Below are positions 9,023 to 10,683 of a stretch of 10,683 bases of DNA, piece after piece. The DNA lies in IMG/VR virus record IMGVR_UViG_2541047961_000001. One strand, written 5' to 3'. The notes under the pieces are model-generated. The model was given only the letters and a program-made list of their open reading frames with translations, had not been told where the DNA came from and searched no databases. Position 1 is the first letter of the stretch. Each line of letters begins with the position of its first letter. The translations under genes and the position numbers were made by a program. Origin of the DNA: a virus. Its lineage: Monodnaviria > Loebvirae > Hofneiviricota > Faserviricetes > Tubulavirales > Inoviridae.

Positions 9023-9034
9023 AAGGATTAACAG

Positions 9035-9089
9035 TCTCAGGAATGAGACAAACGTGCAGTATTACCAACACTGCACGTTCTTTATTGTG
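9035..9089 (+). terminator. tandem hairpins; the second is a rho-independent-like terminator for the repressor gene
   Basis: Hairpin 1: GTCTCA (9035-9040), loop GGAA, TGAGAC (9045-9050). Hairpin 2: ACGTGCAGT (9052-9060), 9-nt loop, ACTGCACGT (9070-9078), followed by T-rich TCTTTATTGTG (9079-9089). Confidence 0.55.
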
Positions 9090-9121
9090 CGAATTCTGAA
9101 CAGTAAAAAAGGATCAAAAGG

Positions 9122-9544
9122 ATGAGTAGAAATAACGAAACAAGCGGCGTTGAACTGGTTGTCGTCGGCGTATTTGCTTTCTGTCTGGCAGTTGTTGCCT
9201 GGCTAATGAAAACTTTCGATGTTGAATGGCAAACAGCACTGGAAACTGCGCCTGGCCTGATAGTCTGGCTGCTTGTTGTTGGGGCGGGGATCTTTTTCGG
9301 GATCAAAATGGAAACAGGCCTTGTTCGCTGGGGTGCTCCACTGGCGATCGCCCTTCTGATTCCGGTATTCAAACCAATTCTTAAGGAAGCTGCCGGAGTA
9401 CGTGAAATGGGTGGGTTGGTTTTCGATGATATGGTTTCGTGGTACGGAACTGGCTGGGGAATGTCGTTAATGTTTTTCGGTATTCTTATCGTCGGATACG
9501 GTCTGCTTTATTGGTGGCACAGAAGAAACTCTTATTATTGGTAA
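9122..9544 (+). CDS. small integral membrane protein (about 4 TM helices), function unknown
   Basis: 140 aa with four hydrophobic segments (LVVVGVFAFCLAVVAWL, GLIVWLLVVGAGIFFGI, APLAIALLIPVF, MSLMFFGILIVGYGLLYWW). AAGGA Shine-Dalgarno before the ATG. Confidence 0.55.
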   Translation: MSRNNETSGVELVVVGVFAFCLAVVAWLMKTFDVEWQTALETAPGLIVWLLVVGAGIFFGIKMETGLVRWGAPLAIALLIPVFKPILKEAAGVREMGGLVFDDMVSWYGTGWGMSLMFFGILIVGYGLLYWWHRRNSYYW

Positions 9545-9611
9545 GCAATTTTGCTCCATATATCAGCGGTGAAGTTCAGAGGTGGTTATTTTTTAGTCTT
9601 GAGGAAAGATA

Positions 9612-10406
9612 ATGAAGCCAGAAAAAGCTATCGAGATATTAAAAAGACAACGGGAGCAAATCCCAGCAATACAAAATGAACGAAGGAGTACAGGAAATAA
9701 CCCAAGTTTTAACTTATGGCAAAGAAACACTAAGACCGCCATATCAAAAATATTTGGTGAAGAGTCAGATCACAAAAAAGAATTTGGCTCAATTCGATAC
9801 TCTTTAATGGCATTTGTTGGTGATACACCAGATTATGTTTTCGATAACGCATTTTGTAGTGGTTTAGATGAAGCACATTCTCTTCTTACGTCTATGATTG
9901 CTGAGATTGAAGAATATGGAATTGACGGAAATTTCATAGAGACAAAAAATGATCCCGTAGCTCTTGTTGAACTAATTTGCCATCAATTTCATAAGGTTGC
10001 AAGACAGCTACAGCAACGACACGATAATAGACAAACCATTGAAATAAATGACGAATATGACGTTCAGGATTTATTTCATGCTCTTTTGAAGATTCATTTC
10101 GAGGATGTCAGACCAGAAGAATATACGCCAAGCTATGCAGGATCTTCAACACGAGTTGACTTCTTGTTAAAGAATGAAAAAATCATTATCGAGTTAAAGA
10201 AAACGAGAAAAAATCTCAAGCAAAAAGAAGTTGGTGAGCAATTAATTGTTGATATAGCTCATTATCAAACGCATCCTGATTGCGAAACTTTAGTGTGTTT
10301 TGTATATGACCCTGAAGGTAGAATTGCCAATCCAATTGGTGTGGAGAATGACCTTGAGCGTTGTACAAATTCAATTTCGGTAAAAGTAATAATCTCACCA
10401 AAATAA
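9612..10406 (+). CDS. uncharacterised protein with C-terminal PD-(D/E)xK-like nuclease motif
   Basis: 264 aa. GAGGA Shine-Dalgarno 6 nt upstream. Helical N-terminal half; the C-terminal half carries ...TRVDFLL (D183) ... IIIELKK (E194-x-K196), preceded by an acidic helix (NDEYDVQDLFHALL). This matches the hD...(D/E)xK restriction-endonuclease-fold signature. AT-rich (about 30-38% GC). Confidence 0.55.
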   Translation: MKPEKAIEILKRQREQIPAIQNERRSTGNNPSFNLWQRNTKTAISKIFGEESDHKKEFGSIRYSLMAFVGDTPDYVFDNAFCSGLDEAHSLLTSMIAEIEEYGIDGNFIETKNDPVALVELICHQFHKVARQLQQRHDNRQTIEINDEYDVQDLFHALLKIHFEDVRPEEYTPSYAGSSTRVDFLLKNEKIIIELKKTRKNLKQKEVGEQLIVDIAHYQTHPDCETLVCFVYDPEGRIANPIGVENDLERCTNSISVKVIISPK

Positions 10407-10416
10407 AAGGACATAT

Positions 10417-10683
10417 ATGGCTACTGTAGATGATGTTGCACAATGGATGAAATCAGAGCTGGAAAACACAAACTGGCTATATCAAGAAACTGTTGTATAT
10501 AAAATAAAAGAGTTATTTGGCGATACTTTCGTATATTTGAATGCTAATGGAAATTTATCCATTGATAAAAAAGTATTAGCGAAGTTTAGAAAGCTAACTA
10601 ATGACACGGTTATATGGGAGAGAGGTGAAAAAGCATGGCGAAAAAGACAAGGTTATGATGCCCCTGGTCGACAGCAGGACTAA
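10417..10683 (+). CDS. hypothetical 88-aa protein, operon partner of the PD-(D/E)xK-like protein
   Basis: Complete ORF (ATG 10417, TAA 10681-10683) with an AAGGA Shine-Dalgarno, starting 10 bp after the upstream stop. Soluble and Lys/Arg-rich at the C-terminus. No recognised domain. Confidence 0.5.
   Translation: MATVDDVAQWMKSELENTNWLYQETVVYKIKELFGDTFVYLNANGNLSIDKKVLAKFRKLTNDTVIWERGEKAWRKRQGYDAPGRQQD

What the first reader, a model, noticed from the sequence alone, without database searches (positions are those of the whole stretch)
9023..10683. Right prophage boundary unresolved: no second dif-like site in the window
Xer-integrated elements are flanked by two dif-like sites. Scanning by eye for GGTGCGCATAA, TTATGTTAAAT and their complements found only weak matches, for example 9816-9843 inside the 264-aa ORF. 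The accessory genes at 9122-10683 are therefore either cargo within the prophage, a separate older dif-linked islet, or host flank.
Basis: seen in the sequence. Interest (0 to 1): 0.5.

Follow-up and report, generated by a model that had tools for sequence, protein, structure and literature searches.

The report
Filamentous prophage end and its cargo
The missing right end of this dif-integrated filamentous prophage lies 86-100 bases beyond the window, so the three 'accessory' genes are swappable cargo of a known phage family (YpfPhi/CUS-1), and one of them looks like an anti-phage nuclease.

Summary
The boundary is resolved from related genomes. In all 24 E. coli genomes that carry window 9023-10683, the DUF6953 stop codon (the window's last base) is followed by a 100-nt att region. 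That region has a dif-like site a (extended coordinates 10690-10716, + strand), a GC hairpin, and site b (10751-10783, - strand) whose XerC arm abuts host hipA. An empty site, a tandem array, a 9.6-kb circular episome, a Klebsiella plasmid array, and independent insertions in Proteus and Yersinia pestis all place 9122-10683 inside a 9,504-nt phage unit (1280..10783). 'Host flank' and 'separate islet' are rejected. The element is YpfPhi/CUS-1: Rep is 100% identical to Y. pestis, and DNA is 99.6% identical over 1280-9102. It differs from YpfPhi essentially only in 9103-10684, a replaceable cargo slot next to attP. Here the slot holds a 140-aa membrane protein, a 264-aa helical-domain + PD-(D/E)XK (DpnII/MboI-type) nuclease, and DUF6953. 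Other occupants include AbiJ-like proteins, so a defence role is plausible but untested. This is known biology with a new cargo variant.

The parts
1252..1279 (-). Intact chromosomal-type dif, regenerated by integration ('attR' in YpfPhi nomenclature). XerD arm 1252-1262 and central TGTATA 1263-1268 are on the host side. XerC arm 1269-1279 is on the phage side.
   Evidence: 28/28 match, 0 expected by chance. Host sequence up to and including this site is identical to the empty site in ATCC 11775.
1265..1279 (-). 15-nt core GGTGCGCATAATGTA shared by attB, attL, attR and attP. The crossover lies within it.
   Evidence: Four-way comparison of the window, D8, MS20658 and ATCC 11775. Three copies in the tandem array.
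1280..10683 (-). The part of the 9,504-nt YpfPhi/CUS-1-type filamentous prophage unit that lies in the window. The unit runs 1280..10783, so its last 100 nt lie outside. Structural and replication genes are on the - strand.
   Evidence: Pfam: secretin, Zot, Phage_CRI/G2P Rep. Window 1280-9102 is 99.6% identical to Y. pestis YpfPhi, and Rep is 100% identical. Unit spacing is 9504/9505 nt in tandem arrays.
8576..9022 (+). RstR-like HTH repressor, first gene of the rightward (lysogeny-side) transcription unit.
   Evidence: HTH_3 / Phage_CI_repr hits. Same position as YPO2273/rstR described in PMC4266046.
9051..9079 (+). Hairpin followed by TCTTTATT after the repressor gene; a likely intrinsic terminator. 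It is not a dif-like site.
   Evidence: RNA fold -15.6 kcal/mol, z -2.9. No Xer-site match.
9103..10683 (+). Variable cargo segment next to attP. Identity to YpfPhi stops at 9102 and resumes at the att region just past the window. Among E. coli relatives the breakpoint is about 9540-9549.
   Evidence: YpfPhi; 127 genomes share 9023-~9549, but only 24 share the rest. Six alternative modules in E. coli.
9122..9544 (+). 140-aa predicted multi-pass membrane protein, function unknown. Conserved in most E. coli CUS-1-like prophages, absent from YpfPhi.
   Evidence: No Pfam or PADLOC hit. phrog_4174, E 2e-85. 127 E. coli genomes cover at least 80% of 9023-9549.
9612..10406 (+). 264-aa protein: N-terminal helical domain (about residues 1-115) plus a C-terminal PD-(D/E)XK nuclease domain of DpnII/MboI type. 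D183, E194 and K196 are intact. Candidate anti-phage effector.
   Evidence: PF18742, E 7e-59. PADLOC: Aga_Helical-REase 1e-34 on the C-terminus, PDC-S35 4e-11 on the N-terminus. D183 and K196 invariant, E194 nearly invariant across 18 homologues. Model pLDDT 74.
10417..10683 (+). 88-aa DUF6953 protein, function unknown. Its stop codon is the last base of the window.
   Evidence: PF22266, E 2e-28. Paired with the nuclease also in Pectobacterium and Morganella, but each gene also occurs alone.
10681..10683 (+). Window end. In every genome holding this cargo, the next 100 nt are site a (ext. 10690-10716, +), a GC hairpin (about ext. 10717-10750), and site b (ext. 10751-10783, -) with XerC arm 10773-10783. 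After that comes host hipA-side DNA or the next phage copy.
   Evidence: 24/24 genomes cover the full 264-nt query. Also.

Best explanation
Window 9023-10683 is the attL-proximal end of a YpfPhi/CUS-1-family filamentous prophage (a CTX-type element integrated by the host Xer recombinases at dif). The three 'accessory' genes are phage cargo in a replaceable slot between the repressor and attP. The right boundary is a hybrid site 86-100 nt past the window end: the 15-nt core at extended 10769-10783, with the XerC arm at 10773-10783. Shown: the end points, the unit, the attP sequence and the slot. Inferred mechanism: in the packaged single strand (the window's - strand), site b (GGTGCGCATAA|TGTACGACTCG|TTATGTTGAAA) pairs with the complement of site a (GGTTCGCACAA|TGACG|TTATGCTAAAG) across a GC hairpin. 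This gives a forked hairpin that mimics a dif duplex, with both Xer arms paired and an unpaired, asymmetric central region. XerC exchanges one strand pair with chromosomal dif at the XerC-arm/central-region border, and replication completes the insertion. That regenerates a perfect dif on the secretin side (1252-1279). It leaves a junction on the repressor/cargo side whose duplex form has an 11-nt spacer, so it should be a poor Xer substrate, the insertion should be effectively irreversible, and new phage DNA would have to come from tandem copies or episomes. The cargo genes are co-oriented with the repressor, so they are probably expressed in the lysogen and terminated by the att hairpin. The 264-aa nuclease is most likely a single-protein anti-phage or abortive-infection effector, with a helical sensor or regulatory domain and a PD-(D/E)XK nuclease. 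The roles of DUF6953 and the membrane protein are unknown.
For: - End points: attB in ATCC 11775 reads host-left|cattatgcgcacc|host-right. attL and attR come from the window and D8. attP comes from the tandem joint in MS20658, the 9,565-bp circular episome L025, and the Klebsiella plasmid array L027.
- All 24 E. coli genomes with this cargo continue with the same att.
- Independent insertions end at the same point but with different XerC arms next to the host flank: GGTTCGCATAA in Proteus and GGTGCACATAA in Y. pestis, versus GGTGCGCATAA at inter-copy joints. This fits a crossover on the XerC side.
- Hairpin: 105-nt ssDNA fold of -31.2 kcal/mol, z -8.0, 0/200 shuffles as good, with both arms paired and a central bulge.
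- Across 14 att variants from six genera, the arms and stem are conserved, while the loop and central bulge vary.
- Family: Rep 100% identical and DNA 99.6% identical to YpfPhi.
- The literature describes the inverted XerC/D pair, tandem repeats, the intact dif at the secretin-side end, and swapped attL-adjacent ORFs (PMC4266046). It classes YpfPhi and CUS-1 as CTX-type (PMC4246890).
- No recombinase is annotated among the genes of the element.
- Cargo: PF18742 and PADLOC hits and conserved catalytic residues.
- Other slot occupants and att-linked genes include AbiJ_NTD4, Shedu SduA and a PDC-S35-type TIR protein.
- The att hairpin as RNA folds at -30 kcal/mol followed by UUUU.
Against: - The bases after 10683 in the window's own genome were not available. 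The att is inferred from identical relatives, and no complete genome in the collection matches the window's left flank end to end.
- Single-strand, XerC-only integration has not been demonstrated experimentally for YpfPhi/CUS-1; PMC4266046 words it as 'may'. It is inferred here from anatomy.
- In E. coli both XerC arms are identical, so the crossover cannot be placed within the 15-nt core. The host origin of the variant arms in Proteus and Yersinia is assumed, not shown.
- The arms and stem do not vary, so there is no covariation evidence for the fold.
- The defence role is guilt by association. Most slot occupants have no recognisable family. The fold search gave no significant hit. No literature was found on DUF6953 or PDC-S35.
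Confidence: 0.87

Rival explanations
1. The genes at 9122-10683 are a separate, older Xer-integrated islet (a second element in an array) lying between the phage and the host, not part of the phage genome.
For: Such islets exist. In Pectobacterium brasiliense the same nuclease + DUF6953 cassette, with site a, the hairpin and half of site b, sits about 490 bp from dif with no phage genes. Similar 'gene + half-att' remnants lie on conjugative plasmids. The segment is variable between strains.
Against: No Xer-like site lies between the repressor and the cargo, or between the cargo genes. Both copies in the MS20658 array and in the Klebsiella plasmid array carry the genes inside a 9,504-nt repeat. 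The circular episome L025 includes the membrane-protein gene and a cargo segment between the repressor and attP. The block accompanies the phage in Proteus. In E. coli, all 24 occurrences are in the phage context.
Confidence: 0.04
2. The genes at 9122-10683 are ordinary host chromosome flanking the prophage.
For: None beyond the lack of a second site in the window. GC content drops to about 0.35 in 9600-10683, which argues for foreign DNA rather than core genome.
Against: In the unoccupied site of ATCC 11775, dif is followed directly by the hipA-side sequence, and none of 1280-10683 is present. hipA-side flank is found in 5,340 of 5,426 genomes, but the cargo in only 24.
Confidence: 0.01
3. 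The boundary and cargo are as in the best explanation, but integration uses a double-stranded attP (VGJ-type or TLC-type, reversible) instead of the folded single strand. Site a would then be only a relic or a terminator element.
For: Single-strand integration has not been shown for this family. Extrachromosomal forms and dynamic copy numbers are reported for YpfPhi (PMC4266046). Episomes are seen here.
Against: As a duplex, site b has an 11-nt central region instead of 6. Site a is in inverted orientation, is essentially invariant across six genera, and pairs arm for arm with site b. Reviews class YpfPhi and CUS-1 with CTXphi. Tandem arrays, the CTX-type route to phage production, are common.
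Confidence: 0.08

Closest known systems
YpfPhi of Yersinia pestis and CUS-1 of E. coli O18:K1:H7 (filamentous prophages at dif)
   Same: The Rep protein is 100% identical, and DNA is 99.6% identical over window 1280-9102. The att region is 99-100% identical. The gene order is the same, from secretin to Rep, repressor, cargo and attL, with an intact dif regenerated at the secretin end and tandem arrays.
   Different: The attL-adjacent cargo differs. YpfPhi has a 135-aa and an 87-aa ORF in the YPO2272/2271 position, and its unit is 8,742 nt. This element has a 140-aa membrane protein, a 264-aa nuclease and DUF6953, and its unit is 9,504 nt. UTI89, which I recall (not tested here) to be of the same O18:K1:H7 serotype as the CUS-1 host, carries the 140-aa gene plus a 369-aa ORF.
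CTXphi of Vibrio cholerae (CTX-type Xer-integrated phage)
   Same: Two inverted dif-like sites fold into a forked hairpin in the single strand. There is no integrase. The rstR-like repressor is divergent from rstA-like Rep. A functional dif is regenerated on one side only. Tandem arrays occur, and accessory genes lie next to an att end.
   Different: The host and the sequences differ. CTXphi's cargo (ctxAB) lies at the opposite, dif-regenerating end, whereas here the variable cargo lies at the repressor/attL end. Single-strand integration is experimentally shown for CTXphi only.
Hypervariable regions with 'weaponized' genes in Vibrio Xer-dependent inoviruses (PMC12715192), and defence hotspots of P2/P4-type prophages (the latter from my own knowledge)
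   Same: A fixed position in a small prophage, next to the lysogeny module, is occupied by alternative one- or two-gene modules, some of them defence-related.
   Different: This one is in the enterobacterial YpfPhi/CUS-1 lineage, and the slot abuts attP to within a few bases. I found no description of it in the searched literature.
PADLOC candidate PDC-S35 and Ago-associated 'Helical-REase' effectors
   Same: The N-terminal roughly 105 residues match the PDC-S35 N-terminus (4e-11). The C-terminal nuclease matches Aga_Helical-REase (1e-34) and PF18742 (7e-59).
   Different: PDC-S35 profiles carry a TIR-like C-terminus, whereas here it is a PD-(D/E)XK nuclease. No Argonaute gene is nearby. Neither match covers the whole protein.

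Membership tests
YpfPhi/CUS-1 filamentous phage family | High sequence identity of the replication, structural and secretion genes to YpfPhi | tested here: met
   Rep is 100% identical to Y. pestis NCTC5923. Window 1280-9102 is 99.6% nt identical.
YpfPhi/CUS-1 filamentous phage family | Integration at chromosomal dif, with an intact dif regenerated at the secretin-side end | tested here: met
   Perfect dif at 1252-1279 next to the YPO2281/2280a-position ORFs. Empty-site comparison. Described in PMC4266046.
YpfPhi/CUS-1 filamentous phage family | Variable ORFs next to attL, beside the rstR-like repressor | tested here: met
   Identity to YpfPhi breaks at 9102 and resumes at the att region. Published swap of YPO2271/2272 for orf1/orf1a.
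CTX-type Xer-integrated element | attP made of two dif-like sites in inverted orientation that can fold into a hairpin with paired XerC and XerD arms | tested here: met
   Site a (+) and site b (-) are 34 nt apart. ssDNA fold -31.2 kcal/mol, z -8.0. Conserved in 14 variants. The att lies just outside the window.
CTX-type Xer-integrated element | No element-encoded integrase | tested here: met
   RefSeq annotation of the identical D8 prophage lists 14 genes, none of them a recombinase. Pfam hits for the ORFs I scanned show none.
CTX-type Xer-integrated element | One junction is a functional dif; the other is a hybrid with host XerC arm plus a phage central region that is not a canonical duplex site | tested here: met
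   1252-1279 is perfect. The other junction has an 11-nt spacer. The XerC arm beside the host flank in Proteus and Y. pestis differs from the phage's own. Its host origin is assumed, not shown.
CTX-type Xer-integrated element | Integration of the single-stranded form by XerC-catalysed exchange of one strand pair, dependent on host XerC/XerD | not testable with these tools
   This needs genetics or in vitro recombination. The literature only proposes it for YpfPhi.
CTX-type Xer-integrated element | Tandem prophage arrays | tested here: met
   MS20658, Klebsiella plasmid, Y. pestis. Whether the window's own genome has one copy or several is unknown.
PD-(D/E)XK nuclease, DpnII/MboI-type (PF18742) | Profile match above the curated cut-off | tested here: met
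   198 bits against a cut-off of 27, residues 118-264.
PD-(D/E)XK nuclease, DpnII/MboI-type (PF18742) | Catalytic D...(D/E)xK residues present | tested here: met
   D183 (RVDFLLK) and E194-x-K196 (ExKK). D183 and K196 are invariant and E194 is nearly invariant in 18 homologues. Their assignment as catalytic residues is by motif, not by structure.
PD-(D/E)XK nuclease, DpnII/MboI-type (PF18742) | Restriction-endonuclease-like fold confirmed by structure comparison | tested here: inconclusive
   Model pLDDT 74. Best PDB matches are PD-(D/E)XK nucleases, but at E 0.1-0.7.
Type II restriction-modification system | A cognate methyltransferase gene next to the nuclease | tested here: not met
   No methyltransferase in the element. 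DUF6953 gives only a 0.0098 hit to an MTase profile, with no stretch passing on its own. Homologues are solitary.
Known anti-phage defence system (PADLOC) | Full-length match to a validated system component | tested here: not met
   Only partial, domain-level matches: PDC-S35 on the N-terminus and Aga_Helical-REase on the C-terminus. PDC families are candidates, not validated systems.
Toxin-antitoxin-like obligate pair (nuclease + DUF6953) | Conserved adjacency of the two genes across unrelated genomes | tested here: not met
   They are adjacent in the phage, in Pectobacterium brasiliense and in Morganella. The nuclease is alone in Citrobacter, Magnetospirillum, Riemerella and P. polaris, and DUF6953 is alone in metagenomic contigs.

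The most novel reading that the evidence does not exclude
The unit 'defence-type gene(s) + site a/GC hairpin (half of a CTX-type attP)' may itself be an exchangeable module. It would move between filamentous phages, conjugative plasmids and chromosomal dif regions, by Xer-mediated or att-anchored recombination. The attP-adjacent slot of YpfPhi/CUS-1 phages would then be a shuttle that spreads anti-phage genes among Enterobacterales, and the 264-aa helical-domain nuclease would be a new single-gene defence protein. The supporting observation is that the half-att starts at or within a few bases of the stop codon of unrelated genes: Shedu SduA, a PDC-S35-type TIR protein, AbiJ_NTD4 proteins and the nuclease/DUF6953 pair. 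This is seen in phages, on roughly 400 plasmids, and at Pectobacterium dif. The plainer reading, that these are decayed irreversible prophage insertions in which only the selected cargo and its terminator survived, is at least as likely. No Xer site was found at the left edge of the slot.
Probability: 0.15. Interest if true: 0.65.

Novelty: new member of a known kind. Interest (0 to 1): 0.3.

Why it matters
For annotation, the prophage is 1280 to about 10783, and the three genes should be labelled as phage cargo, not host genes or a separate island. The case also shows a general trap. CTX-type elements have a non-canonical second junction (an 11-nt spacer, with a partner site in inverted orientation), so a search for a second 28-bp dif will miss it. 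Biologically, the YpfPhi/CUS-1 lineage has been linked to fitness in plague bacilli and in invasive E. coli K1 (PMC4266046). It carries a swappable slot next to attP whose occupants include abortive-infection and nuclease-type genes. The same variant is found in the E. coli chromosome, in Proteus and on a Klebsiella IncF plasmid. If the nuclease protects lysogens from other phages, that would give a concrete selective reason for keeping these otherwise cryptic prophages.

Tried and rejected
- Searching the window for a second dif with mismatches, half-sites, variable spacers and a published degenerate motif gave nothing beyond chance.
- My first extended scan used a wrong offset, because the window has a 400-nt difference from strain D8 in the left flank. 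I redid it. I also first mis-stated the XerC arm as L001 15753-15763; the correct position is 15751-15761.
- The deposited-phage collection has no match to the element, so naming rests on Y. pestis genome DNA and the literature.
- The restriction-modification reading is rejected: there is no methyltransferase.
- The obligate toxin-antitoxin pair reading is rejected: each gene occurs alone elsewhere.
- The structure prediction and PDB fold search for the nuclease gave only weak PD-(D/E)XK-type hits at E >= 0.1, which adds nothing beyond Pfam.
- Literature searches for DUF6953 and PDC-S35 returned no papers.
- A pdif-module-like model, with the cargo flanked by two Xer sites, is not supported: there is no site at the left edge of the slot.
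- Pfam and PADLOC scans of six further cargo proteins (YpfPhi, K. spallanzanii, Brenneria) found no families. 'Defence slot' therefore holds for only a minority of occupants.
- No covariation test of the att hairpin was possible, because the paired positions are invariant.
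Full report
**1. The observation**

The window is an E. coli-type dif region occupied by a filamentous prophage. All six-frame ORFs and Pfam hits give the usual inovirus layout on the - strand:
- secretin at 2151-3395
- Zot/pI-like at 3395-4420
- a small protein at 4424-4711, annotated DUF2523 in identical prophages
- pIII-like at 4724-6436
- a small protein at 6501-6734 (the homologous position is annotated 'major coat protein' in a related phage)
- an ssDNA-binding-size protein at 7023-7340, annotated 'DNA-binding protein'
- Phage_CRI/G2P Rep at 7352-8404

A divergent HTH repressor lies at 8576-9022 (+).

There is one perfect dif at 1252-1279 (- strand), and nothing else comes within three mismatches. 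Half-site counts are at chance level. A two-arm scan with 4-12 nt spacers, and a degenerate motif adapted from PMC12715192, find no further site in the window.

**2. Where the boundary is**

Window 9023-10683 is 100% identical to E. coli D8 and eleven other complete genomes, and at least 98.7% identical in 24 genomes in all. In D8 the DUF6953 gene ends at the base that is the window's last, and hipA begins 178 nt later. That spacer contains three elements, given here in window numbering extended with D8 sequence:
- site a, GGTTCGCACAA|TGACG|TTATGCTAAAG, at 10690-10716 (+)
- a GC-rich stem-loop
- site b, GGTGCGCATAA|TGTACGACTCG|TTATGTTGAAA, at 10751-10783 (-)

The degenerate motif finds exactly two sites in window + 300 nt: 1252-1279 and 10751-10783. 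It gives none in 50 shuffles. All 24 genomes with this cargo have the same continuation.

**3. Four-way att comparison**

| Site | Source | Sequence |
|---|---|---|
| attB | empty site, ATCC 11775 | ...aatttaacataatata\|cattatgcgcacc\|aacataaaccaaggg... (hipA side) |
| dif-side junction | window | same host-left sequence, core, then phage aatggtaagg from 1280 |
| cargo-side junction | D8 | phage ...caacataacgagtcgta, core, host aacataaacc |
| attP | MS20658 inter-copy joint | phage on both sides of the core |

MS20658 has core copies at L003 4915, 13001 and 22506. The unit is 1280..10783 = 9,504 nt. Spacing is 9,505 nt in MS20658, where one pIII copy is annotated as frameshifted, and 9,504 nt in a Klebsiella plasmid array. 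Both MS20658 copies carry the three accessory genes.

**4. Independent confirmations**

- A 9,565-bp circular 'plasmid' of E. coli TUM14759 is an episomal genome of the same phage family. It is 99.5% identical to window 1280-9540, then has a different cargo, then the att region joined to the phage left end.
- A Klebsiella pneumoniae IncFIB/IncHI1B plasmid carries a tandem array of this exact variant at 99.8% identity. Its three cargo proteins have the same accessions as in D8.
- Proteus terrae assemblies carry the Rep-repressor-140 aa-nuclease-DUF6953 block, ending in site a and site b and then unrelated host genes.
- Y. pestis NCTC5923 encodes an identical Rep. It is 99.6% identical to window 1280-9102, has about 820 nt of other DNA (135-aa and 87-aa ORFs), then the same att at 99-100% identity. 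Its unit is 8,742 nt, matching the published 8.7 kb, and it is in tandem.

The window's element is therefore YpfPhi/CUS-1 with a different insert in 9103-10684. 'Host flank' and 'separate islet' are both rejected for this locus.

**5. How it most likely works**

The review PMC4266046 describes for YpfPhi an inverted pair of XerC/XerD sites, regeneration of an intact dif at the secretin-side end, tandem repeats, and replacement of the attL-adjacent ORFs between YpfPhi and CUS-1. PMC4246890 lists both as CTX-type.

The anatomy fits that model. The 105-nt attP folds as single-stranded DNA into a long hairpin in which both Xer arms are paired and the central region is an asymmetric bulge. The fold is -31.2 kcal/mol with z -8.0 on the window's - strand, and -29.1 kcal/mol with z -7.6 on the other strand. 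By inference from Ff/CTX biology, the - strand is the packaged strand, because it has the sense of the structural genes.

Reading that strand from hipA gives the host XerC arm, the phage central region and XerD-like arm, the whole phage, the phage XerC arm, and then the host central region and XerD arm. This is the product expected if XerC exchanges the dif top strand with the folded phage strand at the XerC-arm/central border.

In Proteus and Y. pestis, the XerC arm next to the host flank is GGTTCGCATAA and GGTGCACATAA respectively. Inter-copy joints and the episome have GGTGCGCATAA. This supports a crossover on the XerC side, on the assumption that those variant arms are the hosts' own.

Across 14 att variants from six genera, site a, the stem and the XerD-like arm are essentially invariant, and changes cluster in the loop and the central bulge. 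That is the pattern expected for protein-binding arms, but it leaves no covariation to test. As a duplex, site b has an 11-nt spacer, so Xer-mediated excision is not expected. This fits the frequent tandem arrays. The steps involving XerC/XerD and single-stranded DNA are inferred, not shown.

**6. The cargo slot**

Only 24 of 5,426 complete E. coli genomes have all of 9023-10683, while 127 share 9023 to about 9549, which includes the 140-aa membrane-protein gene. Downstream of that gene, and ending within a few bases of site a, I found these modules:

| Source | Module |
|---|---|
| this window | nuclease + DUF6953 |
| E. coli 510016, Combat2C1 | ECs_2282 zinc-binding protein + a 159-aa protein |
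| UTI89 | a 369-aa protein |
| CAVp367 | a 363-aa protein |
| O6:H16 | 155-aa + 123-aa proteins |
| NC101 | an STM4504 protein with AbiJ_NTD4 + DUF7014 |
| K. spallanzanii | 89-aa + 240-aa proteins |
| Brenneria, Photorhabdus | 131-aa + 120-aa proteins |

In YpfPhi even the 140-aa gene is replaced. The cargo genes run in the repressor's direction. The att hairpin is a strong RNA stem (-30 kcal/mol, z -6.7) followed by UUUU, so it probably also terminates this operon.

**7. What the cargo is**

The 264-aa protein has a PF18742 (DpnII/MboI-type PD-(D/E)XK) domain at residues 118-264, E 7e-59. Its C-terminus resembles PADLOC's Ago-associated 'Helical-REase' effectors (1e-34), and its N-terminal roughly 105 residues resemble the N-terminus of candidate PDC-S35 (4e-11). 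PDC-S35 profiles otherwise end in a TIR-like domain, so this looks like an effector swap.

The family is large, with 3,617 hits. It has a uniform length of about 262 aa and is 52-57% identical across Proteobacteria, Bacteroidota and Firmicutes. D183 and K196 are invariant, E194 is nearly invariant, and there is a DEYDVQDL motif.

Homologues occur alone in a Citrobacter tailed prophage and next to IS and toxin-antitoxin genes in Magnetospirillum and Riemerella. It is therefore a solitary mobile gene. It is not part of a restriction-modification pair, since there is no methyltransferase, and it is not an obligate partner of DUF6953. The AlphaFold model (pLDDT 74) shows a helical N-domain and an alpha/beta C-domain, and PDB matches are insignificant.

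DUF6953 (88 aa) has 91 detectable relatives. It is adjacent to the nuclease in Pectobacterium and Morganella and alone elsewhere. All three proteins belong to PHROG families of unknown function. A defence or abortive-infection role for the nuclease is the best guess, at roughly even odds, and it is untested.

**8. Side observation**

The half-att (site a, the hairpin and the XerD-like arm of site b, without the XerC arm) lies at or within a few bases of the stop codon of unrelated genes, with no phage genes nearby:
- the nuclease/DUF6953 cassette about 490 bp from dif in Pectobacterium
- an STM4504/AbiJ-like gene on IncF plasmids; about 440 plasmid records match, mostly this type
- a bona fide Shedu SduA gene on a Serratia plasmid (E 2e-108)
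- a PDC-S35-type TIR protein on a K. variicola plasmid

These are either decayed, irreversible insertions that kept the useful gene and its terminator, or evidence that cargo + att moves as a module. I could not decide between the two. No Xer site marks the left edge of the slot.

**9. Verdict**

The finding is a correct observation of an absence, caused by the window ending 7 nt before the att region starts. The biology is that of a known phage family with a known integration mode. What is new is modest: a cargo variant that, as far as I could search, has not been described, and a clearer picture of the attP-adjacent slot. Novelty: new member of a known kind. Interest: 0.3.

Noticed in passing
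window 1-1144: The host flank left of dif is degraded. An alpha/beta hydrolase ORF is truncated (1-453, - strand), and a second hydrolase reading frame is split between 522-1061 and 653-1144. Relative to strain D8 the window lacks about 400 nt starting near position 362. No complete E. coli genome in the collection matches the window end to end; the best is 97% coverage in 4 pieces.
   Followed up: partly
L027 (K. pneumoniae plasmid NZ_CP132684.1, 66360-84461): An IncFIB/IncHI1B plasmid carries a tandem array of exactly this phage variant (99.8% nt, same three cargo proteins, unit 9,504 nt). A dif-integrating filamentous phage sits on a plasmid in another genus. The ends of the array and the plasmid target site were not examined.
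   Followed up: partly
L025 (E. coli TUM14759 'plasmid' NZ_CP128883.1, 9,565 bp); L034 (Brenneria alni contig, 9,278 nt, with the att region at both ends): Small circular 'plasmids' or contigs are really episomal filamentous-phage genomes of this family, deposited as untypable plasmids.
   Followed up: partly
L028 5002-5071; L029 5001-5077; L030 6001-6096; about 440 plasmid records: A 70-95-nt fragment of the phage att (site a + GC hairpin, without site b's XerC arm) lies at or right next to the stop codon of defence-type genes on conjugative plasmids. The genes are an STM4504/AbiJ_NTD4 protein (IncF), Shedu SduA (Serratia), and a PDC-S35-type TIR protein in a TIR/TPR/DUF4231 neighbourhood (K. 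variicola). In the IncF case a dif-like site (TGTGCGCACAA|TCTATC|TTATGTTAAAT) lies about 2.7 kb upstream, with an IS-type transposase in between.
   Followed up: partly
L021/L022 5676-7350; L006 7420-8795: In Pectobacterium brasiliense the nuclease + DUF6953 cassette (73% nt identity to the window) lies between a functional dif and a decayed att, with no phage genes. P. polaris has the nuclease alone at the same locus. Morganella has a truncated nuclease + DUF6953 + an att remnant.
   Followed up: partly
L003 (E. coli MS20658) 4915-22520: The two tandem prophage copies are both damaged in different ways. Copy 1 lacks the secretin gene and part of the Zot-like gene (unit 8,086 nt). Copy 2 has pIII annotated as frameshifted. 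The 510016 prophage (L002) has an IS1 insertion that removes most of the region from pIII to Rep.
   Followed up: no
L035 ('Candidatus Nanosynbacter' MAG contig), L033 ('Aerococcus' MAG contig): Contigs binned to non-enterobacterial MAGs carry this enterobacterial phage family, together with a perfect E. coli-type dif in L035. They are probably mis-binned contigs.
   Followed up: no
window 4724-6436: The longest pIII-like ORF is 570 aa, but RefSeq annotates 520 aa (1,563 nt) in identical prophages, so the true start is probably internal. In one related genome a fragment of this gene is annotated 'virulence factor PuvA domain protein'.
   Followed up: no
L002 13390-13402: In strain 510016 the XerC arm at the cargo-side junction is degenerate: AGTGCGTATAA instead of GGTGCGCATAA.
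   Followed up: no
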